Part shown: positions 22,371 through 31,373 of the stretch, in pieces
Layout: every line of letters starts with the position of its first letter
Position numbering within the stretch: position 1 is the stretch's first letter
Source of the DNA: Escherichia phage HP3
DNA length: 64,000 nucleotides
Reading direction: 5' to 3' (one strand)
Sequence record: NC_041919.1
The notes under the pieces: model-generated
What the model saw: only the letters and a program-made list of their open reading frames with translations
Databases searched by the model: none
What the model was told of the DNA's origin: nothing
Position numbers and translations under genes: made by a program

Positions 22371-22628
22371 ATGAAAACTTTCAAAGAGTTTGCTACAAAA
22401 ACTACTATCACTGAATCTTCCCACGGTATGGAAGTAAAGCTTGGAATGGCTTTAGCTGAAGCTGAGCGTCTTTTCTCTCGTATTAAAGAACTTGCTGCTG
22501 CGGTCGATCCTTCATCTTTTAAAGGAGACCAAACTAAAGTTAAAGCACTTTTAGCATTATGCTCCGATGCAGGAGAAATTGCTAAAAATGGTTCTAAGAT
22601 GAAGAAACGATTAGAAGATTTAAAATAA
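22371..22628 (+). CDS. Internal protein (ipI-locus variant) with capsid-targeting sequence
   Basis: N-terminus MKTFKEFATKTTITE resembles T4 CTS MKTYQEFIAE with an L/I-x-E prohead-protease site; position after 57B as for T4 ipI. Confidence 0.55.
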   Translation: MKTFKEFATKTTITESSHGMEVKLGMALAEAERLFSRIKELAAAVDPSSFKGDQTKVKALLALCSDAGEIAKNGSKMKKRLEDLK

Positions 22629-22641
22629 TTTCACAAAGTTG

Positions 22642-22670
22642 TTTACATAGGGTTTTAGTTGTGATACTAT
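22642..22670 (+). promoter_or_regulatory. Early promoter embedded in a stem-loop (PeSL-type)
   Basis: -35 tttaca, 17 nt spacer, -10 tactat; flanking inverted repeat atagggt / accctat. Confidence 0.6.
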
Positions 22671-22704
22671 TACCCTATCAAAACAAAACCAAATGGAAAT
22701 CAAA

Positions 22705-22938
22705 ATGAAAACTTACCAAGAATTTATTGCTGAAACTGCTGATGTAAAAGTTGAGTTTATTTACATTGGCAAGAAAGATAAAATGGGTGAAATGCCTCAT
22801 GGAGTTCTTCGTGATGCATTAGATAATTTCGGTCAACTCGCCGCAGAAGATTACGGTGATAAAATTGTTGTTACTGGTCCTGCTGCAGTTATTGAAAAAT
22901 GGGCAGCAGAAAATAAATCAATTTTTCGTAAAAAATAA
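22705..22938 (+). CDS. Internal protein with canonical capsid-targeting sequence
   Basis: Starts MKTYQEFIAE (identical to the T4 CTS consensus); alternative ATG at 22693 adds MEIK. Confidence 0.55.
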   Translation: MKTYQEFIAETADVKVEFIYIGKKDKMGEMPHGVLRDALDNFGQLAAEDYGDKIVVTGPAAVIEKWAAENKSIFRKK

Positions 22939-22996: not shown

Positions 22997-23182
22997 ATGA
23001 AACGTTGTGAATTAATTCGAAATGTTGCTATTGCAATTTCTGCTTCCGCTTTTAGTTTTTCAATGTTTGTTGGATTTATATGTGGATTATTGACTACAGC
23101 AGAAAATGTGTTTTCACTTGTAGTAGCATTTTTAATTGGTTTAATTGCTATTGTTATGGATAAAATTTCTAAAGGTGAATAA
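22997..23182 (+). CDS. Small hydrophobic membrane protein
   Basis: 61 aa, mostly hydrophobic (VAIAISASAFSFSMFVGFICGLL...); SD gaggag upstream. Confidence 0.4.
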   Translation: MKRCELIRNVAIAISASAFSFSMFVGFICGLLTTAENVFSLVVAFLIGLIAIVMDKISKGE

Positions 23183-23580
23183 TGAACGTTGAATATTATG
23201 TATATGCGGATTACGAAAATAATCCGTCTAAAGATGAAGATAATCGTTTAGGTGTAGATGCTTTCGATTCCCCTGCGGCGGCATGGCAATGGGTTGAAAG
23301 AACCGATATTCCTTACCGTTATATTGAAGTGGTTGACCACGCAGGAAACAAGTATCCTAAGGAAGCATATGTTGCTTCCGGGAAGGTAAATTTCCTTTTG
23401 TTTGCAGGTGATAATTATTATCCCCGTGGTGGGTATACCGATTTAATTGCTAAAGCATTCTCTGAAGATGAACTCCGTGACATTATCAAAGAAAATGAAA
23501 ACAAACCGATGGATTCTAATCGCTTTGATTGGTGGCAAATCGTAAATGCTAATACTCACACTATTGTTGATGAAGGCTGA
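23182..23580 (+). CDS. Hypothetical protein
   Basis: 132 aa ORF, overlapping start/stop (taATGa) with the upstream gene. Confidence 0.45.
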   Translation: MNVEYYVYADYENNPSKDEDNRLGVDAFDSPAAAWQWVERTDIPYRYIEVVDHAGNKYPKEAYVASGKVNFLLFAGDNYYPRGGYTDLIAKAFSEDELRDIIKENENKPMDSNRFDWWQIVNANTHTIVDEG

Positions 23581-23582
23581 TA

Positions 23583-23870
23583 ATGATTCTTTATGCGAAA
23601 GTATCATCCATTGAAAATGGATATAAATATGATCAAGACGCGGCTAAAGCTTTGATTGATGATTATGGCATTTTAACATGTTTTGAAGTTGAAAAGGTTT
23701 ACATTGACCGTTCATCTTCTCAAGTTAAATTAGTGAAGGAAGAACGTAAATTTAATACAGTAAATTTTGATTTCTTTATTGAAACAGAAAAAGGTCCTCT
23801 TGAATATGATATTTTCAAGAATCCTTTGGGTCTTGAATGCATCGTAAATATGTATTATTATAAATGGTAA
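23583..23870 (+). CDS. Hypothetical protein
   Basis: 95 aa ORF, overlapping stop-start with the upstream gene. Confidence 0.45.
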   Translation: MILYAKVSSIENGYKYDQDAAKALIDDYGILTCFEVEKVYIDRSSSQVKLVKEERKFNTVNFDFFIETEKGPLEYDIFKNPLGLECIVNMYYYKW

Positions 23871-23967
23871 ATATGCTTTAAGAATTATTTGTTATTATTA
23901 ACTCATATCGCACTGATTAATACCCTCTATCATCAAGGGTTCTTGCTTAAGAGCCTTTGTTAATAAT

Positions 23968-24040
23968 TGGGAATTAGCCAAGTTGGTAAGGCACTGGATT
24001 TTGATTCCAGGATGCAAAGGTTCGAGTCCTTTATTCCCAG
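23968..24040 (+). tRNA. tRNA-Gln (anticodon UUG)
   Basis: Manual fold: acceptor tgggaat/attccca, anticodon stem ctgga/tccag, loop ttttgat, T-loop ttcgagt. Confidence 0.8.
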
Positions 24041-24041
24041 C

Positions 24042-24128
24042 GCGAGAATGGCCAAATTGGTAAAGGCACAGCACTTAAAATGCTGCGGAATGATTTCCTT
24101 GTGGGTTCGAGTCCCACTTCTCGCACCA
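24042..24128 (+). tRNA. tRNA-Leu (anticodon UAA), long variable arm, CCA encoded
   Basis: Acceptor gcgagaa/ttctcgc, anticodon loop cttaaaa, T-arm gtgggttcgagtcccac. Confidence 0.8.
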
Positions 24129-24133
24129 AATTT

Positions 24134-24207
<74 letters not shown>

Positions 24208-24217
24208 ATTTAATTTA

Positions 24218-24291
24218 CTCCGTGTAGCTCAGTTTGGTAGAGCGTCTGCTTTGGGAGCAGAATGTCGTAGGTTCAAATCCTGCCACGGAGA
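24218..24291 (+). tRNA. tRNA-Pro (anticodon UGG)
   Basis: Acceptor ctccgtg/cacggag, anticodon stem tctgc/gcaga, loop tttggga. Confidence 0.8.
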
Positions 24292-24293
24292 CT

Positions 24294-24383
24294 GGAGGCG
24301 TGGCAGAGTGGTTTAATGCACCGGTCTTGAAAACCGGCAGTCGCTCCGGCGACTCATAGGTTCAAATCCTATCGCCTCCGCCA
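24294..24383 (+). tRNA. tRNA-Ser (anticodon UGA), long variable arm, CCA encoded
   Basis: Acceptor ggaggcg/cgcctcc, anticodon stem ccggt/accgg, loop cttgaaa. Confidence 0.8.
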
Positions 24384-24388
24384 GTTTT

Positions 24389-24464
24389 GCTGATTTAGCT
24401 CAGTAGGTAGAGCAACTCACTTGTAATGAGAAGGTCGGCGGTTCGATTCCGTCAATCAGCACCA
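24389..24464 (+). tRNA. tRNA-Thr (anticodon UGU), CCA encoded
   Basis: Acceptor gctgatt/aatcagc, anticodon stem actca/tgaga, loop cttgtaa. Confidence 0.8.
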
Positions 24465-24465
24465 A

Positions 24466-24540
24466 GGCCCTGTAGCTGGAAGGTTCAAGCAAGCGACTCA
24501 TAATCGCCAGATGGTGGTTCAATTCCACCCAGGGCCACCA
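24466..24540 (+). tRNA. tRNA-Ile/Met (anticodon CAU; T4 reads this as Ile after modification), CCA encoded
   Basis: Acceptor ggccctg/cagggcc, anticodon loop ctcataa, T-arm ggtggttcaattccacc. Confidence 0.75.
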
Positions 24541-24549
24541 AATTAATTT

Positions 24550-24636
24550 GGGGAGTTATCCCGTAGAGGTAGCGGTGTGGACTGTAAATTCATTGTCATT
24601 GCGACTCGGGTGGTTCGACTCCACCACTCCCCACCA
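24550..24636 (+). tRNA. tRNA-Tyr (anticodon GUA), long variable arm, CCA encoded
   Basis: Acceptor ggggagt/actcccc, anticodon loop ctgtaaa, T-arm ggtggttcgactccacc; not one of the eight T4 tRNAs. Confidence 0.6.
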
Positions 24637-24640
24637 ATTT

Positions 24641-24715
24641 GGATGTGTAGCTCAATGGCAGAGCGATCGCCTGTTAAGCGATTGGTTATAGGTTCGAATC
24701 CTATCACGTCCGCCA
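24641..24715 (+). tRNA. tRNA-Asn (anticodon GUU), CCA encoded
   Basis: Acceptor ggatgtg/cacgtcc, anticodon stem atcgc/gcgat, loop ctgttaa. Confidence 0.7.
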
Positions 24716-24829
24716 AATTTGTGACAACTGTCACATTAATATCTACTTGACGCGATTATAGGGGTTGAACTGATCACTCTTCTCTTAATTTCGTGTGAAG
24801 ACATCTTGATTGTTGGAGTAGGTATTAAT

Positions 24830-24905
24830 GTGGCCGTAGTTCAGTTGGTAGAACTCGAGATTGTGATTCTCGTAGTCATGGGTTCGACTCCCATCGGTCA
24901 CCCCA
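24830..24905 (+). tRNA. tRNA-His (anticodon GUG) with extra 5-prime G, CCA encoded
   Basis: Acceptor gtggccg/cggtcac, anticodon stem cgaga/tctcg, loop ttgtgat. Confidence 0.7.
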
Positions 24906-24909
24906 ATTA

Positions 24910-24985
24910 CGGGGCATAGCTCAGAAGGAAGAGCAAGGACCTTCTAAGTCCTAGGTCGTAGGTTCGATCCCTACTGCCTCGACCA
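24910..24985 (+). tRNA. tRNA-Arg (anticodon UCU), CCA encoded
   Basis: Acceptor cggggca/tgcctcg, anticodon stem aggac/gtcct, loop cttctaa. Confidence 0.75.
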
Positions 24986-25003
24986 ATTATAAGTGAGGAA
25001 AAT

Positions 25004-25354
25004 ATGAAAGGTAATGTTTATTTAGTAGTTCATGATTTAACATTCTATTTTAATCATAATGATACTGTTATTTCTGAACGTGTAATTAATTTGCTTTATC
25101 AGCATGCAGATTATGTTTATGTCGAAAACGAATATGGTCATTGGCAATTTCTCAAAAATCGTTCATTTGGTTTAGATGGTTACAAATATTTTGATCGTAA
25201 AGACCTTTTAGATACAATTCCGTTATCTACACAATATCAAAATCATAAGTCTTTACATAAATGCCGGCTAATTCGAAATGCTGAATCCGCGTATGAAGCA
25301 ATTGATTTGTGGCGTAAACGCCGTGAATATATTGATTCTTTAAAAGAATATTAA
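25004..25354 (+). CDS. Hypothetical protein
   Basis: 116 aa ORF immediately after the tRNA cluster; SD gaggaaaat upstream. Confidence 0.5.
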   Translation: MKGNVYLVVHDLTFYFNHNDTVISERVINLLYQHADYVYVENEYGHWQFLKNRSFGLDGYKYFDRKDLLDTIPLSTQYQNHKSLHKCRLIRNAESAYEAIDLWRKRREYIDSLKEY

Positions 25355-25658
25355 GAAACCGGGTCGCTACCGGTAAGTCGTCGGACTGATGTTCCCTGGA
25401 GTATAGTTTCCTCCCACAGTTTTACTGTGTTCTGGCTCTTTACTATCACAGCAGAAACGGCGCACCGAATTATCGATTCGAGGAAATATCTTTGCCGTAA
25501 GCCGAGTAGCGTTTTTGACGGAACGTTCGGATATGGTCGAGATATGGCCTTTTAAAAATATTGAGTAGCGTCAACTACTTAATAACCGGGTTCGAATCCC
25601 GGCGTTTCGTACAAACACTTGCCTTAGCAGGTGGAACCCCGACAAGGTTGCCGCAAGG
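25355..25658 (+). ncRNA. Candidate structured stable RNA(s) with tRNA-like T-arm
   Basis: About 300 nt non-coding, GC-rich relative to surroundings; ccgggttcgaatcccgg is a canonical T-arm; repeated gagtagcgt; T4 encodes small stable RNAs next to its tRNAs. Confidence 0.35.
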
Positions 25659-25689
25659 CTTAGCCCCGACCGAAAGGTTGGGGCTTTTT
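25659..25689 (+). terminator. Intrinsic terminator hairpin, repeat copy 1
   Basis: cttagccccgaccgaaaggttggggcttttt: 10 bp stem, GAAA loop, T-run; identical copy at 26216-26246. Confidence 0.65.
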
Positions 25690-25691
25690 GG

Positions 25692-25699
25692 TATAAATA
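25692..25699 (+). promoter_or_regulatory. Late promoter TATAAATA upstream of the internal-protein-like gene
   Basis: tataaata about 38 nt upstream of the ATG at 25738. Confidence 0.45.
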
Positions 25700-25737
25700 T
25701 TAGTATATTAAATCTACAAATTAAAATAGGAAATAAG

Positions 25738-26211
25738 ATGAAATCATATACTCAATTTTTAAATGAAGCGGTGTTAAATGAAGCATCTAGCACCGAAATT
25801 CAAGCTGTTGCAAAAGCTGCCATTGCCGCGGGTAAATATTCCTATAAAGATGCTTCTGATGAATCGCGATTCCAGTTTGCACGCGACATGAAAGCGGAAG
25901 GATTTACGGGAAATGCAGTTAGTATGGCCTGGAAAAGTTTAGTTGCTACTGGCGCTGCTTTTGCAAAGGCTTCGGGTAAACCTGCTCCTAAAGCAGATCC
26001 TAAAGCGGCACAAGAAAAAAATATCGTTAAAGGAATTATCGCTAAATATGAAGCTATCCTTAAAGAGCTTTTAGTAATCAAAACCGAAGGCCAAAAGTTA
26101 GCCCGTGCTTATAGTTTCAAAGATAATCCACATGTTCACTCTCTTGAGTATGTTGAAGACATCCAAAAAATTATTAAAGACCGCATTTGGTCTGCTAAAC
26201 AAATCAAATGA
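25738..26211 (+). CDS. Internal-protein-like protein with CTS-like N-terminus
   Basis: 157 aa from ATG with SD aggaaataag; N-terminus MKSYTQFLNEA resembles the T4 CTS; the ORF-track start at 25561 lies in the structured RNA region. Confidence 0.5.
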   Translation: MKSYTQFLNEAVLNEASSTEIQAVAKAAIAAGKYSYKDASDESRFQFARDMKAEGFTGNAVSMAWKSLVATGAAFAKASGKPAPKADPKAAQEKNIVKGIIAKYEAILKELLVIKTEGQKLARAYSFKDNPHVHSLEYVEDIQKIIKDRIWSAKQIK

Positions 26212-26215
26212 CATT

Positions 26216-26246
26216 CTTAGCCCCGACCGAAAGGTTGGGGCTTTTT
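26216..26246 (+). terminator. Intrinsic terminator hairpin, repeat copy 2
   Basis: Identical 31 nt to 25659-25689, followed by a T-run. Confidence 0.65.
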
Positions 26247-26336
26247 AGTTTGAATCACTCGGATAACGCTGTTACGGATAGTAACAAAGTAATAAATAAT
26301 TAATAACCAACCGATAAATTATTTCAAGGATTTTAA

Positions 26337-26900
26337 ATGAAAACCTATGCCGAATTTTTAACCGAAGCAGCAAAATTACCATCTGAAGCAGATCTTACTA
26401 AAGTATTCTTCCAATTGGACCCAAAAGACCGCGGCGATTTTCTTAAGTGGAAAGCTAAAGCTATTGAAATGTACAACATCGATAATAGTTCTTTTACAAT
26501 GAGTCAAGAAAATAAATTCAATAAAGCATTTTTCAAAATTTCTAAGAAATTGGCATCTGGCGCTCAGGTTCCTAAATCTGTGTTAGCTACTCCTGAACGC
26601 GCACCTGTTAAAATTTCTAAGAATATGTTCGACACTAAAAAATACGTTAATGCTTTGAATAAAGCTCTTGATGCATTGGATGATGCAAAGAAGGCAGCCC
26701 GCGATCTTCAAGACGTGTACACCGATTTTGACCGCAAAACTAAAGGTTCTATTTCAAATAGCGAACGCAATAGTGTAAGTGTTTATTCTGATAGCCTTGA
26801 TGTTCTTGGCGATGCGTATACTGAAATTAAAAATCGTATTAACACTGCATCTAAGCTAAAAGCTGCTGCAGAAGCTATAATAAGTAAACTAGGTAAATAA
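26337..26900 (+). CDS. Internal-protein-like protein with CTS-like N-terminus
   Basis: 187 aa; N-terminus MKTYAEFLTEA; SD aaggatt upstream. Confidence 0.5.
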   Translation: MKTYAEFLTEAAKLPSEADLTKVFFQLDPKDRGDFLKWKAKAIEMYNIDNSSFTMSQENKFNKAFFKISKKLASGAQVPKSVLATPERAPVKISKNMFDTKKYVNALNKALDALDDAKKAARDLQDVYTDFDRKTKGSISNSERNSVSVYSDSLDVLGDAYTEIKNRINTASKLKAAAEAIISKLGK

Positions 26901-26906
26901 TTTTAA

Positions 26907-26933
26907 ATCCCTATCTAAATGATAGGGCTTTTT
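26907..26933 (+). terminator. Intrinsic terminator
   Basis: ccctatc / gataggg stem followed by cttttt. Confidence 0.55.
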
Positions 26934-27057
26934 GGTATCTAGGCCTTTCTGGACCTCTCTAGGCATCATTTAGTTTATACCCTTTATAATATATTATCCT
27001 ATCCTTTAATTGCCCATCCCTGCCCTAGAATTCCCTAAAAATTTTTTCACAAAACTG

Positions 27058-27086
27058 TTTACATCTCTGTTCTTCCATGGTACTAT
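27058..27086 (+). promoter_or_regulatory. Early sigma70-type promoter
   Basis: ttcacaaaactgtttaca upstream element, -35 tttaca, 17 nt spacer, -10 tactat, conserved leader acaactatcaact. Confidence 0.55.
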
Positions 27087-27129
27087 ACAACTATCAACTA
27101 CTGATACAGAAAACAACTTGGAGAATGAA

Positions 27130-27393
27130 ATGGATAATTACGGCGAACTGTTCAACTTCTTTATGAAATGCGTTTCAGAAGATTTCGGTCGTACAGTGAA
27201 TGATATTAAAGTTATCGGTCCTGATCATCCGATGTTTGAAACTTACGCAGTAATGGGTAATGAAGACGGTCAGTGGTATACTGTAAAAGTTGTGATTAAT
27301 ATGTTCACAGCAGAAGGTTATGTTAAACTGTCTTCTAAAGTTTACCATGATAACGACGAAATCGCAGAAGAATATTTCAATAATATGAAATAA
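27130..27393 (+). CDS. Hypothetical protein
   Basis: 87 aa from in-frame ATG after SD ggaga; the longer ORF start at 27010 overlaps the promoter. Confidence 0.5.
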   Translation: MDNYGELFNFFMKCVSEDFGRTVNDIKVIGPDHPMFETYAVMGNEDGQWYTVKVVINMFTAEGYVKLSSKVYHDNDEIAEEYFNNMK

Positions 27394-27494
27394 GTTTACG
27401 CAGGCTCATGATTGAGATATTATGAGCCTATAATTTGACGATAGAGTATTATACTCCTACGGATTTTAAATCTCAATTAACCTAAGGAAATACT

Positions 27495-28088
27495 ATGAAC
27501 ACACTGAAGAAAATTGTTGAGTTTATTCGCACTAAACTTGGTTCTGCTATGGCTAAAAATCTATCTGTCGAAGAACAGTATACTGCTGCAGCAGCAAAAC
27601 TACTTGATAAAATTAAAGATCTAAAAACTGCTTCTGTTAAATCTATTAACGAAGAAAAACGTATTCGTGAACTTGTTATCGAAAAGAATCGACAGGCCGA
27701 ATCAAAAGAGCGTGAAATTCGTAAACTTCTTTCCGAAGGCCAAGATGTAACAATGCATGCTAAACTCGGTTTACTATATCGTCGAACAGCTGAGCAGTTG
27801 ACTACTAAGGCTGACGGTTATGCTGAAATGCGAATTGAAATCGCCAAGAAAGTAGTTGAGTTAGATGATGCTCGTCAAGAACTTGCGGTTAAATTGGAAT
27901 ATATCCGTGAAACTCGTGCAGCGAATGCCCTTGGAATTAGTACTGCTGATGATGTAGTTGAAATTGCAGCACTGACTAAGGTTGATATTGAAGATACTCT
28001 TGCTCGAGTTGAAACCTTTAATGGTAATATTTCTGGGGTTGAAACTACCTCTGCCGATGTTCAGGAATATATTAATTCTCTGAAATAA
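27495..28088 (+). CDS. Coiled-coil protein (PspA/IM30-like composition, tentative)
   Basis: 197 aa, N-terminal amphipathic helix, long E/K/R-rich helical segments. Confidence 0.45.
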
Positions 28089-30366: not shown

Positions 30367-30897
<531 letters not shown>

Positions 30898-30902
30898 AGT
30901 TG

Positions 30903-30931
30903 TTTACTTTCTCCTAGAATTGTGATAGTAT
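30903..30931 (+). promoter_or_regulatory. Early promoter with stem-loop over the -10
   Basis: -35 tttact, 17 nt spacer, -10 tagtat; inverted repeat tgtga / tcaca. Confidence 0.5.
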
Positions 30932-30956
30932 ATTCACAGTTACTTGGAGGGATAAA

Positions 30957-31373
30957 ATGACTCGTATTAATTTGACTTTAGTATCTGAACTTGCTGATCA
31001 ACATTTAATCGCAGAATACCGTGAATTGCCGCGTGTTTTTGGTATAGTTCGTAAGCATGTGGCAAACGGTAAGCGCGTTAAAGATTTTAAAATATCTTCT
31101 AAATTTATTTTAGGTTCTGGTCATGTTACTTTCTTTTACGATAAGTTAGAATTTTTGCGAAAGCGTCAATCGGACATTATAACGGAATGCTTAAAACGCG
31201 GGTTCAGTATAAAAGATACTGAAGTTCCTGACATCAGCGATATTCCAGTAGAATGGAAAAATGATTATAATCCATGCAAATCAGCTATTAAGTTGAGTCA
31301 ACAACGACTCGATGAAAAAATTTTAATGAAGCCACACTGGTATAAGTATTACGGCAAAAATATTTACATTTAA
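30957..31373 (+). CDS. denV: Endonuclease V (pyrimidine dimer DNA glycosylase)
   Basis: 138 aa; [17 protein letters not shown]...[11 protein letters not shown] matches recalled T4 DenV. Confidence 0.95.

What the first reader, a model, noticed from the sequence alone, without database searches (positions are those of the whole stretch)
25659..26246. Internal-protein-like gene flanked by two identical 31 nt terminator hairpins (cassette-like)
The sequence cttagccccgaccgaaaggttggggcttttt occurs identically at 25659-25689 and 26216-26246, directly upstream and downstream of the 157 aa CTS-tagged ORF. Each copy folds into a 10 bp GC-rich stem with a GAAA loop and T-run. Identical flanking repeats around a single variable gene are the signature expected for cassette exchange by homologous recombination between related phages.
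Basis: seen in the sequence. Interest (0 to 1): 0.55.

Follow-up and report, generated by a model that had tools for sequence, protein, structure and literature searches.

The report
Terminator repeats bracket injected-protein gene cassette
In this T4-like phage, the transcription terminator that ends the tRNA operon is repeated exactly after a small gene for a probable capsid-packaged protein, and related phages gain, lose or swap genes precisely at these repeats; this kind of gene shuffling is already known in T-even phages, so the locus is a tidy example rather than a surprise.

Summary
The 31-mer CTTAGCCCCGACCGAAAGGTTGGGGCTTTTT occurs exactly twice, at 25659-25689 and 26216-26246. It brackets a 157-aa ORF (25738-26211) that starts with a T4-type capsid-targeting leader.

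Copy 1 is the conserved predicted terminator behind the tRNA/rnaD/rnaC operon. T4 has the identical hairpin there, but no internal-protein (IP) gene after it. Copy 2 ends the inserted gene, here called IP-A. A second cassette, IP-B (26337-26900), follows with a different terminator.

I read 27 related loci and ran junction probes against about 600 phage records. The rnaC-e.8 slot is empty, holds A, holds B, or holds A+B, and every breakpoint lies at the hairpin/T-run. Diverged IP-A alleles sit between hairpin copies. So do a very distant paralog (TB004) and a two-gene insert (WG01). The two copies share genus-specific substitutions.

The cassette reading is therefore supported by comparison, not by experiment. 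The principle is old (Repoila 1994; PeSLs, Arbiol 2010), and the RB51 GenBank record already notes the flanking direct repeat. What seems undescribed is the locus itself: a third IP slot beside the tRNA operon, filled by phrog_2280 proteins that are annotated only as hypothetical. I rate it a new member of a known kind, of modest interest.

The parts
25354..25466 (+). rnaD (species 2 RNA) homolog
   Evidence: Local alignment to T4 rnaD gives 97 identical positions over about 116 aligned.
25473..25611 (+). rnaC (species 1 RNA) homolog, the last gene of the tRNA/stable-RNA operon
   Evidence: 138 of 139 positions are identical to T4 rnaC. No Rfam family matches it.
25659..25689 (+). Hairpin copy 1 (stem 25662-25685, then the T-run): predicted intrinsic terminator of the tRNA/rnaD/rnaC operon
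   Evidence: The identical hairpin follows rnaC in T4. The exact 31-mer is present in 418 phage records. ARNold-predicted terminators are annotated at both copies in phage D5505.
25692..25699 (+). TATAAATA, the T4 late-promoter consensus, directly after the T-run and 38 nt before the IP-A ATG (inferred promoter)
   Evidence: The motif keeps this position in Tequatrovirus loci, TB004 and WG01. On its own the motif is not enriched in the window (12 found, 10.6 expected).
25738..26211 (+). IP-A: a 157-aa ORF with a capsid-targeting-type leader (MKSYTQFLNE|A), family phrog_2280
   Evidence: It has no Pfam or PDB match. All database entries sampled call it 'hypothetical protein'.
26216..26246 (+). 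Hairpin copy 2 (stem 26219-26242, then the T-run): predicted terminator of IP-A, and the right boundary of the 557-bp repeat unit
   Evidence: Homology of CAM-21, PM123 and ESh30 to the window stops at exactly 26246.
26247..26336 (+). Leader of the IP-B cassette ('beta' junction, AGTTTGAATC...)
   Evidence: In IME340, RB14 and RB69 this sequence follows the single rnaC hairpin directly.
26337..26900 (+). IP-B: a 187-aa ORF with a capsid-targeting-type leader (MKTYAEFLTE|A), also phrog_2280
   Evidence: It is 97% identical in amino acids to the copy in the Mosigvirus PhAPEC2, although the flanks are only 87-88% identical in nucleotides.
26909..26933 (+). Third, different terminator (CCCTATC-TAAAT-GATAGGG plus CTTTTT). 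Its 3' end, GGGCTTTTT, is shared with the hairpin copies
   Evidence: It aligns in register with the two hairpin copies as repeat family D1.
26934..27129 (+). 'Gamma' region (GGTATCTAGG...) carrying an early-type promoter (TTTACA-17-TACTAT, 27058-27086) for e.8
   Evidence: In T4, T2, T6 and PST this sequence follows the rnaC hairpin directly.
27130..27393 (+). e.8 homolog, the conserved right anchor of the slot

Best explanation
The 31-nt repeat is a predicted intrinsic (rho-independent) transcription terminator present in two copies.

**What each copy does.** Copy 1 is the resident terminator of the tRNA/rnaD/rnaC operon, conserved across T-even phages. Copy 2 ends a one-gene unit made of a late promoter, IP-A and a terminator. 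IP-A is a probable capsid-packaged, injected internal protein of family phrog_2280. A second unit, IP-B, sits behind copy 2 and has a terminator of its own. Each hairpin probably insulates neighbouring units with different timing: tRNA operon, then the late IP gene, then the early e.8 block.

**How the repeats shape the locus.** As direct repeats, the hairpins and their T-runs are the joints at which cassettes are added, lost or replaced in the rnaC-e.8 slot. An unequal exchange or slippage between copy 1 and copy 2 removes exactly one 557-bp unit, which gives the IME340/RB14 layout. An exchange between copy 2 of an A-only phage and the single hairpin of a B-only phage gives the A+B layout of this window, and its reciprocal gives the empty T4 layout.

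**Shown versus inferred.** Shown here: the repeat, its fold, its identity with the T4 rnaC-distal hairpin, the four layouts, and the position of the breakpoints. Inferred: termination in vivo, late-promoter use, packaging of IP-A and IP-B, and the enzymology of the exchange.
For: 1. The repeat is exact and has no chance expectation. It has a strong hairpin followed by a T-run.
2. T4 has the same hairpin after rnaC, followed directly by the e.8 upstream region. In the window that region lies after the third terminator.
3. In 27 loci read base by base, the sequence after a hairpin is one of three kinds: alpha (leading to IP-A), beta (leading to IP-B) or gamma (leading to e.8). All four presence/absence combinations of A and B occur, in Tequatrovirus and again in Mosigvirus.
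4. BLAST homology of other phages to the window ends at 26246, or just after 25689.
5. Junction probes give about 124 records with A|hairpin|beta, about 278 with A|hairpin|gamma and 384 with rnaC|hairpin|alpha. The rnaC|hairpin|beta probe matches 138, roughly 14 more than the A+B count.
6. Both alpha variants (G or A after the T-run) occur with and without IP-B, so a four-gamete test is positive.
7. The two hairpin copies share genus-specific changes: GA in Tequatrovirus, TT in Mosigvirus, GGCCC..GGGCC in Dhakavirus. This indicates homogenisation, or repeated re-creation of the duplication.
8. The hairpin is 100% conserved among Tequatrovirus loci whose left flank is 88-99% identical and whose IP-A is 80-97% identical. 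The IP-B cassette is 92-97% identical to the one in the Mosigvirus PhAPEC2, against 87-88% for the flanks, which suggests transfer at cassette level.
9. TB004 carries a different phrog_2280 paralog between two hairpin copies. WG01 carries IP-A plus an unrelated ORF.
10. The leaders MKSYTQFLNEA and MKTYAEFLTEA match the T4 IPII/IPIII leader.
Against: - There is no experimental evidence here for termination, for promoter use, or for packaging of IP-A and IP-B.
- 31-36 bp is short for efficient T4 homologous recombination (from memory: Singer et al. 1982 put efficient recombination at about 50 bp). Such events would therefore be rare, and slippage could equally explain the deletions.
- Between co-infecting phages, the long flanking homology (rnaC on one side, e.8 on the other) can move the whole interval without using the hairpin at all.
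- The IP-B cassette shares only about 9 nt (GGGCTTTTT) at its right joint, so not every joint is a long repeat.
- TATAAATA is not enriched in the window, and Mosigvirus loci have a non-consensus motif at that position.
- The census numbers are approximate, because the search tool joins pieces up to about 560 bp apart.
Confidence: 0.75

Rival explanations
1. Insertion scar only. The duplicate arose once, when IP-A was inserted at the rnaC terminator. Both copies are now kept purely as terminators. Later variation among phages comes from ordinary recombination in the long flanking homology, and the repeat itself plays no part.
For: Both copies are good predicted terminators. Flanking homology in rnaC and e.8 is long and 88-99% identical. 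The repeat is confined to this locus, with at most 2 copies per genome in the 60 records listed.
Against: An A-only and a B-only genome share no sequence between A and B except the hairpin, yet all four A/B combinations exist in two genera. The copies share genus-specific substitutions, which independent drift after a single old duplication would not produce. The IME340/RB14 layout equals the window minus exactly one repeat unit.
Confidence: 0.15
2. Direct-repeat deletion by replication slippage (copy-choice), not homologous recombination. Under this reading A+B is the ancestral layout. A-only, B-only and empty layouts are successive deletions between the hairpin copies or between their GGGCTTTTT ends, helped by the hairpin stalling replication.
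For: All derived layouts can be reached from A+B by deletions between direct repeats of 31 nt (copy 1 against copy 2) or about 9 nt (copy 2 against the third terminator). ES26 has an exact inversion of the hairpin interior, which is a template-switch signature and shows that the hairpin forms in DNA. From memory, T4 deletions between short direct repeats are well documented (Singer and Westlye 1988).
Against: Deletion alone does not explain how different paralogs or alleles come to lie between hairpins (TB004, WG01, alleles A1-A3). It does not explain why the IP-B cassette is more similar across genera than its flanks, or why the copies co-vary by genus.
Confidence: 0.3
3. The repeat is a PeSL (promoter-early stem-loop), the dispersed mobile regulatory cassette of T4-type phages. 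It would move ORFs through excised mini-circles.
For: The outcome is the same: a regulatory stem-loop on both sides of a variable ORF, with one element left at the empty site. Excision would give a 557-bp circle carrying one hybrid hairpin, as described for PeSL192 and PeSL210. A middle-promoter variant (PmSL) is also known.
Against: The repeat contains no sigma-70-type early promoter, and none lies next to either copy. The stem-loop lies upstream of a late-promoter motif, not between or over the -35 and -10 boxes. The stem sequence differs from the T4/PST PeSL consensus AGNA-loop-TCNT. There are only 2 copies per genome, not a dispersed family.
Confidence: 0.1
4. Two independent terminators that became identical by chance or by convergent selection for an optimal GNRA-loop hairpin.
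For: Unrelated phage contigs in IMG/VR carry nearly the same CCCCGACCGAAAGGTTGGGG plus T-run terminator, in several copies (L006 and L007).
Against: The identity extends beyond the stem to the unpaired CTTA leader. In A-only phages it also extends into GGTAT after the T-run, giving 36 nt. The G-U wobble position is shared, and the copies co-vary by genus. No shuffle produced even one copy.
Confidence: 0.02

Closest known systems
Polymorphic internal-protein loci of T-even phages (Repoila, Tetart, Bouet and Krisch, EMBO J 1994). The paper is not held in the library. Its content is taken from citing papers and from memory.
   Same: Small non-essential ORFs start with the conserved capsid-targeting leader. 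Their number and identity vary between phages. Repeated regulatory sequence lies 5' and 3' of the ORFs and was proposed to mediate recombinational shuffling.
   Different: The location is new: between rnaC and e.8, not 57B-trna.4 or e-denV. This phage has nothing between e and denV. The repeat is a 31-36 nt intrinsic terminator, not the roughly 70-bp early promoter with an overlapping inverted repeat that flanks T4 ipIII and ipII. The proteins are phrog_2280, not the IPI, IPII or IPIII families.
PeSLs, promoter-early stem-loop cassettes of T4-type phages (Arbiol et al. 2010, PMC2839356; Comeau et al. 2014, PMC4122927)
   Same: A stem-loop terminator sits at both ends of a variable ORF, with a single element at the empty site. 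Recombination between the elements is proposed to insert, delete or replace the ORF.
   Different: The repeat has no early promoter. The stem-loop precedes a late-promoter motif. There are two local copies rather than dozens of dispersed ones. One copy doubles as the terminator of the tRNA operon.
Morons of lambdoid phages (Juhala/Hendrix 2000; from memory, and as discussed)
   Same: A single accessory gene with its own promoter and terminator lies between conserved backbone genes, present in some relatives and absent in others.
   Different: Morons are not bounded by conserved repeats, and their insertion is thought to be illegitimate. Here the boundaries are repeated and reused.
Terminator of the T4 tRNA/species 1 RNA operon (T4 NC_000866, about 60 nt 3' of rnaC; Broida and Abelson 1985, from memory)
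   Same: Copy 1 is this element. The 22-nt stem-loop and the T-run are identical to T4.
   Different: In T4 it is single and followed directly by the e.8 upstream region. Here it is duplicated around an inserted gene.
T4 internal proteins IPI, IPII and IPIII, injected inhibitors of GmrSD-type restriction enzymes (PMC12373910)
   Same: The N-terminal leader with an L/I-x-E cleavage motif is shared. The proteins are small, non-essential and highly variable.
   Different: There is no sequence similarity beyond the leader. No function, packaging or target is known for IP-A or IP-B, and all sampled database entries call them 'hypothetical protein'.

Membership tests
Intrinsic (rho-independent) terminator | G+C-rich stem-loop followed directly by a U-run on the transcribed strand | tested here: met
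   The stem has 10 pairs (7 G-C) with a GAAA loop, followed by TTTTT. The z-scores are -3.9 and -4.7. The reverse strand has no T-run after the stem.
Intrinsic (rho-independent) terminator | Lies at the 3' end of a transcription unit, in the same orientation | tested here: met
   Copy 1 lies 47 nt after the rnaC homolog. Copy 2 starts 4 nt after the IP-A stop codon.
Intrinsic (rho-independent) terminator | Transcripts end there in vivo or in vitro | not testable with these tools
   This needs 3'-end mapping. The only related records are ARNold predictions in GenBank entries.
PeSL (promoter-early stem-loop) | The conserved element contains a sigma-70-type early promoter (TTTACW-N17-TAYWAT in the T4/PST group) | tested here: not met
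   No promoter-like site lies in or next to either copy. The nearest + strand hits are at 25191 and 27058.
PeSL (promoter-early stem-loop) | The stem-loop lies between the -35 and -10 boxes or overlaps them | tested here: not met
   The stem-loop lies upstream of a TATAAATA late-promoter motif. The PeSL layout is described.
PeSL (promoter-early stem-loop) | Many dispersed copies in the hyperplastic regions of a genome | tested here: not met
   There are 2 copies in the 64 kb window. In the 60 records listed, each has 1 or 2 places; overall there are 512 places in 418 records.
PeSL (promoter-early stem-loop) | Flanks ORFs that are inserted, deleted or replaced between close relatives | tested here: met
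T-even internal-protein locus cassette (Repoila 1994) | The ORF begins with the conserved leader of about 11 aa (capsid-targeting sequence) | tested here: met
   The leaders are MKSYTQFLNEA and MKTYAEFLTEA, against MKTYQEFIAEA in T4.
T-even internal-protein locus cassette (Repoila 1994) | Flanked 5' and 3' by a repeat of about 70 bp holding an early promoter and an overlapping inverted repeat | tested here: not met
   The repeat here is a 31-36 nt terminator without a promoter. The T4 ipIII/ipII flanks of the classical type are shown.
T-even internal-protein locus cassette (Repoila 1994) | Lies in one of the two known IP loci (57B-trna.4 or e-denV) | tested here: not met
   It lies between rnaC and e.8. 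The e-denV interval of this phage is empty.
T-even internal-protein locus cassette (Repoila 1994) | The number and identity of ORFs in the locus vary among T-even phages | tested here: met
   The slot is empty or holds A, B, A+B, C, or A plus an unrelated ORF.
T4-type internal (injected) protein | Packaged into the prohead, cleaved by the gp21 protease after the leader, and injected with the DNA | not testable with these tools
   Only the leader and its L-x-E motifs (FLNE, VLNE; FLTE) can be seen in the sequence.
T4-type internal (injected) protein | Homology of the mature part to IPI, IPII or IPIII | tested here: not met
   BLASTP matches the leader only. The PHROG families differ: 2280, against 4363, 7857 and 5341.

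The most novel reading that the evidence does not exclude
The rnaC-e.8 interval may be a third, so far unnamed internal-protein locus of T-even phages. Under this reading the tRNA-operon terminator acts as a reusable docking joint behind which cassettes of one fast-diverging family (phrog_2280: IP-A, IP-B, IP-C) are stacked, swapped and lost. These proteins would be injected counter-defence factors, for example inhibitors of further GmrSD-type or other restriction systems. They would take over, in phages like this one, the role that the absent ipII and ipIII play in T4.
Probability: 0.35. Interest if true: 0.5.

Novelty: new member of a known kind. Interest (0 to 1): 0.3.

Why it matters
Internal proteins of T-even phages are injected with the DNA. 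The three that have been studied each disarm a different GmrSD-type restriction enzyme (PMC12373910). A slot that holds 0, 1 or 2 members of an uncharacterised leader-bearing family in hundreds of therapeutic-type coliphages is therefore a likely host-range determinant. These genes are annotated only as 'hypothetical protein' in the records sampled.

The locus also gives an unusually clean natural series for studying how short regulatory repeats mediate gene gain and loss in T4-type genomes. All four layouts exist, the joints can be mapped to the base, and the same series appears in two genera. For annotation, the practical message is that a run of late promoter, leader-bearing ORF and terminator next to the tRNA genes should be flagged as a candidate internal protein.

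Tried and rejected
- **Rfam scan of 23000-27500 at E<=1.** It found only the tRNAs and chance hits. No family covers the hairpin or the rnaC/rnaD homologs.
- **Exact-pattern scan of IMG/VR for the 22-nt stem-loop.** It gave only 6 contigs. Four are T4-like and agree with the layouts found elsewhere. Two (L006, L007) are unrelated phages with look-alike terminators, so they were not used as evidence.
- **Pfam and PDB sequence searches with IP-A and IP-B.** Nothing reached significance.
- **AlphaFold2 on IP-A without an alignment.** The model is all-helical but poor (pLDDT 67.7, pTM 0.39), so I ran no fold search.
- **Large protein-database searches.** I did not run them, because the function of the ORF does not decide the question about the repeat.
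- **Literature searches for the GenBank ORF names (RB32ORF132c and others).** No paper was found. Repoila 1994 and Miller 2003 are not held in the library.
- **Global alignment of the T4 locus to the window.** It misplaced the short T4 interval (last line), so for T4 I relied on the anchor-based read-out instead.
- **Chimeric junction probes.** The tool joins pieces up to about 560 bp apart, so these overcount. The counts for the empty and B-only layouts are therefore only rough.
- **Apparent 'minus-strand' hairpin copies.** The one in EP02SG is just a loop variant of a near-palindromic stem. Only the ES26 case is a true inversion.
Full report

Yes. The 31-mer CTTAGCCCCGACCGAAAGGTTGGGGCTTTTT occurs at 25659-25689 and 26216-26246 on the + strand. 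It occurs nowhere else in the window, even with three mismatches allowed. None of 100 dinucleotide-preserving shuffles contained a copy, and a degenerate stem pattern finds the same two sites.

Each copy folds into a 10-pair stem (seven G-C, two A-U, one G-U) with a GAAA loop, followed by five T. The folded stretches of 46 and 66 nt contain the hairpin plus a small extra helix. Their energies are -24.9 and -23.2 kcal/mol, and their z-scores are -3.9 and -4.7. The terminator scan lists both.

The ORF between them runs 25738-26211 and encodes 157 aa. Copy 1 ends 48 nt before its ATG, and copy 2 begins 4 nt after its stop codon. The start-to-start spacing is 557 nt.

**2. Where are we?**

The window is a Tequatrovirus, a close relative of T4. 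Window 24900-27500 is 100% identical to Escherichia phage HP3.1 and 99.9% identical to many others.

The gene order around the finding is as follows:

- a cluster of 11 tRNA genes (23968-24985)
- a 116-aa ORF (25004-25354)
- homologs of the T4 stable RNAs rnaD (25354-25466) and rnaC (25473-25611, 138 of 139 identical to T4)
- hairpin copy 1
- the 157-aa ORF, here called IP-A
- hairpin copy 2
- a 187-aa ORF, here called IP-B (26337-26900)
- a third, different terminator (26909-26933)
- e.8 (27130-27393), e.6 and e.5

In T4 the same stem-loop and T-run lie about 60 nt after rnaC, but they are followed directly by GGTATCTAAGCC... and e.8. In the window that sequence, GGTATCTAGGCC..., comes only after the third terminator. 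Copy 1 is therefore the resident predicted terminator of the tRNA/rnaD/rnaC operon. Relative to T4, this phage carries two extra genes behind it.

**3. What are the genes?**

IP-A starts with MKSYTQFLNEA and IP-B with MKTYAEFLTEA. T4 IPII and IPIII both start with MKTYQEFIAEA. This is the capsid-targeting leader, with its L/I-x-E protease motif.

Beyond the leader, neither protein resembles IPIII, and they barely resemble each other. Even so, both hit one remote-homology family, phrog_2280 ('unknown function'), with E-values of 1e-60 and 1e-53. T4 IPI, IPII and IPIII belong to other PHROGs. There is no Pfam or PDB match. Every database entry sampled calls the two proteins 'hypothetical protein' (one JGI name looks spurious), while the two leader-bearing ORFs of the ipI locus in this window are named Ip5 and internal head protein.

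This phage has nothing between e and denV, where T4 keeps ipIII and ipII.

**4. The comparative test**

*Survey by BLAST.* Window 25400-27250 finds 733 phage records, and they fall into classes:

- about 126 cover the whole query
- a large class lacks one of the two genes
- in CAM-21, PM123 and ESh30 homology stops at query position 847, which is window 26246, the last base of copy 2
- in several others it stops within a few bases of 25689
- T4, T2, PST and RB7 lack both genes

*Loci read base by base.* I fetched 27 loci and read them from a fixed rnaC anchor. After a hairpin there are only three kinds of sequence: alpha (GGTATAAAT..., leading to IP-A), beta (AGTTTGAAT..., leading to IP-B) and gamma (GGTATCTAG..., leading to e.8). 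'HP' stands for a hairpin copy, and 't3' for the third terminator, in the table below.

| Layout | Phages |
|---|---|
| HP-gamma (empty) | T4, T2, T6, PST |
| HP-alpha-A-HP-gamma (A only) | slur02, RB51, CAM-21, PM123, ES26, two IMG/VR contigs |
| HP-beta-B-t3-gamma (B only) | IME340, RB14 |
| HP-alpha-A-HP-beta-B-t3-gamma (A+B) | the window, D5505, EcNP1, two IMG/VR contigs |

The same four states recur in Mosigvirus, with that genus's own hairpin variant: LF82-4 (empty), AV111 and EP02SG (A), RB69 (B) and PhAPEC2 (A+B).

*Census by junction probes.* The counts are approximate, because the tool joins pieces up to about 560 bp apart.

| Probe | Records with at least 80% coverage |
|---|---|
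| rnaC\|HP\|alpha | 384 |
| A\|HP\|beta | 124 |
| A\|HP\|gamma | 278 |
| rnaC\|HP\|beta | 138 |

The last figure implies roughly 14 B-only records beyond the A+B genomes. The even sampling suggests that some tens of records up to about 100 have the empty layout.

The exact 31-mer is present in 418 records at 512 places, so about 94 records have two exact copies.

**5. Evidence that the joints are used, not merely inherited**

- An A-only and a B-only genome share nothing between A and B except the hairpin. Yet all four combinations exist, in two genera.
- Both alpha variants (G or A right after the T-run) occur with and without IP-B.
- The IME340/RB14 layout equals the window minus exactly one repeat unit.
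- The two copies in a genome share lineage-specific changes: GCCCCGACC...GGTTGGGGC in Tequatrovirus, GCCCCTTCC... in Mosigvirus and GGCCCTTCC...GGGCC in the Dhakavirus WG01. Independent drift after one ancient duplication would not give this pattern. Homogenisation, or repeated re-creation of the duplication, would.
- Among Tequatrovirus loci the hairpin is 100% conserved, while the left flank is 88-99% identical and IP-A 80-97%. Between the window and the Mosigvirus PhAPEC2, the beta leader, IP-B and the third terminator are 92-97% identical. The flanks are 87-88% identical and IP-A is 75%. This fits transfer of the IP-B cassette as a unit.
- Different contents lie between hairpin copies:
  - IP-A alleles that are 75-79% identical in amino acids
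  - in TB004, a phrog_2280 paralog only 20-24% identical to IP-A
  - in WG01, IP-A plus an unrelated 184-aa ORF of phrog_2143

**6. How it most likely works**

*Shown:* two copies of a strong predicted terminator; copy 1 is the element that follows rnaC in T4; cassette boundaries coincide with the hairpin/T-run.

*Inferred:*

- Both copies terminate transcription.
- TATAAATA at 25692-25699, directly after the T-run and 38 nt before the ATG, serves as the late promoter for IP-A. The motif keeps this position in Tequatrovirus, TB004 and WG01. It also precedes the late gene e at 30369 and 30382. Its overall frequency in the window is no higher than chance.
- The terminators insulate units with different timing. 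The e.8 block has its own early-type promoter at 27058-27086.
- Unequal homologous exchange or slippage between the direct repeats adds, removes or replaces cassettes.

The right joint of the IP-B cassette shares only GGGCTTTTT with the hairpins. Microhomology at the ends of terminators, and not only the full 31-mer, is therefore involved.

The data cannot separate homologous recombination from copy-choice slippage. The exact inversion of the hairpin interior in ES26 does show that template switching happens at this hairpin.

**7. Comparison with what is known**

The principle is established. According to the papers that cite it and to my memory of its abstract, Repoila et al. 1994 described two highly polymorphic IP loci. 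Their leader-bearing ORFs are flanked by a repeated promoter with an inverted repeat, proposed to mediate shuffling. Arbiol et al. 2010 and Comeau et al. 2014 generalised this to PeSLs. The RB51 GenBank record even notes that this very ORF is 'flanked by 34 bp imperfect direct repeat'.

The present element is nevertheless not a PeSL in the strict sense, nor a classical IP-locus repeat:

- it has no early promoter
- the stem-loop lies upstream of a late-promoter motif
- there are only two local copies
- one copy is the operon terminator itself
- the locus is neither of the two known IP loci

It works like those systems without meeting their definitions. Each cassette also has the promoter-gene-terminator build of a moron, but with reused, repeated boundaries.

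**8. Verdict**

The phenomenon is a further member of a known kind, so the surprise for a specialist is small.

The part that seems undescribed is that the rnaC-e.8 interval is a third internal-protein slot. It is populated by one fast-diverging, unannotated family. In view of the recent finding that Ip1-3 each block a distinct GmrSD enzyme, these proteins are reasonable candidates for injected counter-defence factors. That reading is untested here.

Noticed in passing
L010 (phage ES26) 3320-3341, at the position of hairpin copy 2: The second hairpin reads GCCCCAACCTTTTGGTCGGGGC. This is an exact inversion of the 20-nt interior of the AAAA-loop variant seen in CAM-21 and PM123: the loop changes from AAAA to TTTT, and the G-T wobble becomes an A-C mismatch. 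It is a hairpin 'flip', as expected from intrastrand template switching.
   Followed up: partly
window 30403-31373: Lysozyme gene e (30403-30897) is followed directly by denV (30957-31373). The ipIII/ipII locus that T4 has between these two genes is empty in this phage.
   Followed up: partly
window 22371-22938: The ipI locus, between 57B and trna.4, holds two leader-bearing ORFs. One is an Ip5-type protein of 85 aa (22371-22628). The other is a 77-aa internal protein (22705-22938, MKTYQEFIAE...).
   Followed up: partly
window 25004-25354: A 116-aa ORF (phrog_3355, unknown function) sits between tRNA-Arg and rnaD. It is absent from T4, T6 and PST, which instead carry the homing endonuclease gene segB upstream of tRNA-Arg. 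This is another indel in the tRNA region.
   Followed up: no
window 25354-25611: The rnaC homolog is 138 of 139 identical to T4. The rnaD homolog is much more diverged (97 of about 116 positions). Neither stable RNA has an Rfam family, although rnaC carries a tRNA-like GGTTCGAATCC arm.
   Followed up: no
window 25634-25656 (rnaC trailer): ACCCCGACAAGGTTGCCGC resembles a degenerate, shortened extra copy of the hairpin just upstream of copy 1. It is also present in T4.
   Followed up: no
L006 1920-8628 (IMG/VR contig of 251 kb, an unrelated phage): Five near-identical terminators (CCCCGACCGAAAGGTTGGGG plus a T-run, with variants) follow successive small genes. Repeated-terminator families may be common outside T4-like phages.
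   Followed up: no
L026 (EcNP1), L020 (AV111), L028 (RB69), L016 (TB004): The cassettes often look decayed. IP-A is disrupted in EcNP1 and truncated to 99 aa in AV111. IP-B is split into ORF149c and ORF148c in RB69. The TB004 paralog has a frameshift in an A-run. Sequencing errors cannot be excluded.
   Followed up: no
window 25728-25769 and 26327-26368: The ribosome-binding site and leader-coding regions of IP-A and IP-B form a second direct repeat of 42 nt at 74% identity. Each cassette therefore has a conserved 5' landmark as well as the 3' terminator.
   Followed up: no
window 23968-24985: The tRNA cluster has 11 genes (Gln, Leu, Gly, Pro, Ser, Thr, Met/Ile-CAU, Tyr, Asn, His, Arg), against 8 in T4. 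It contains no segB.
   Followed up: no
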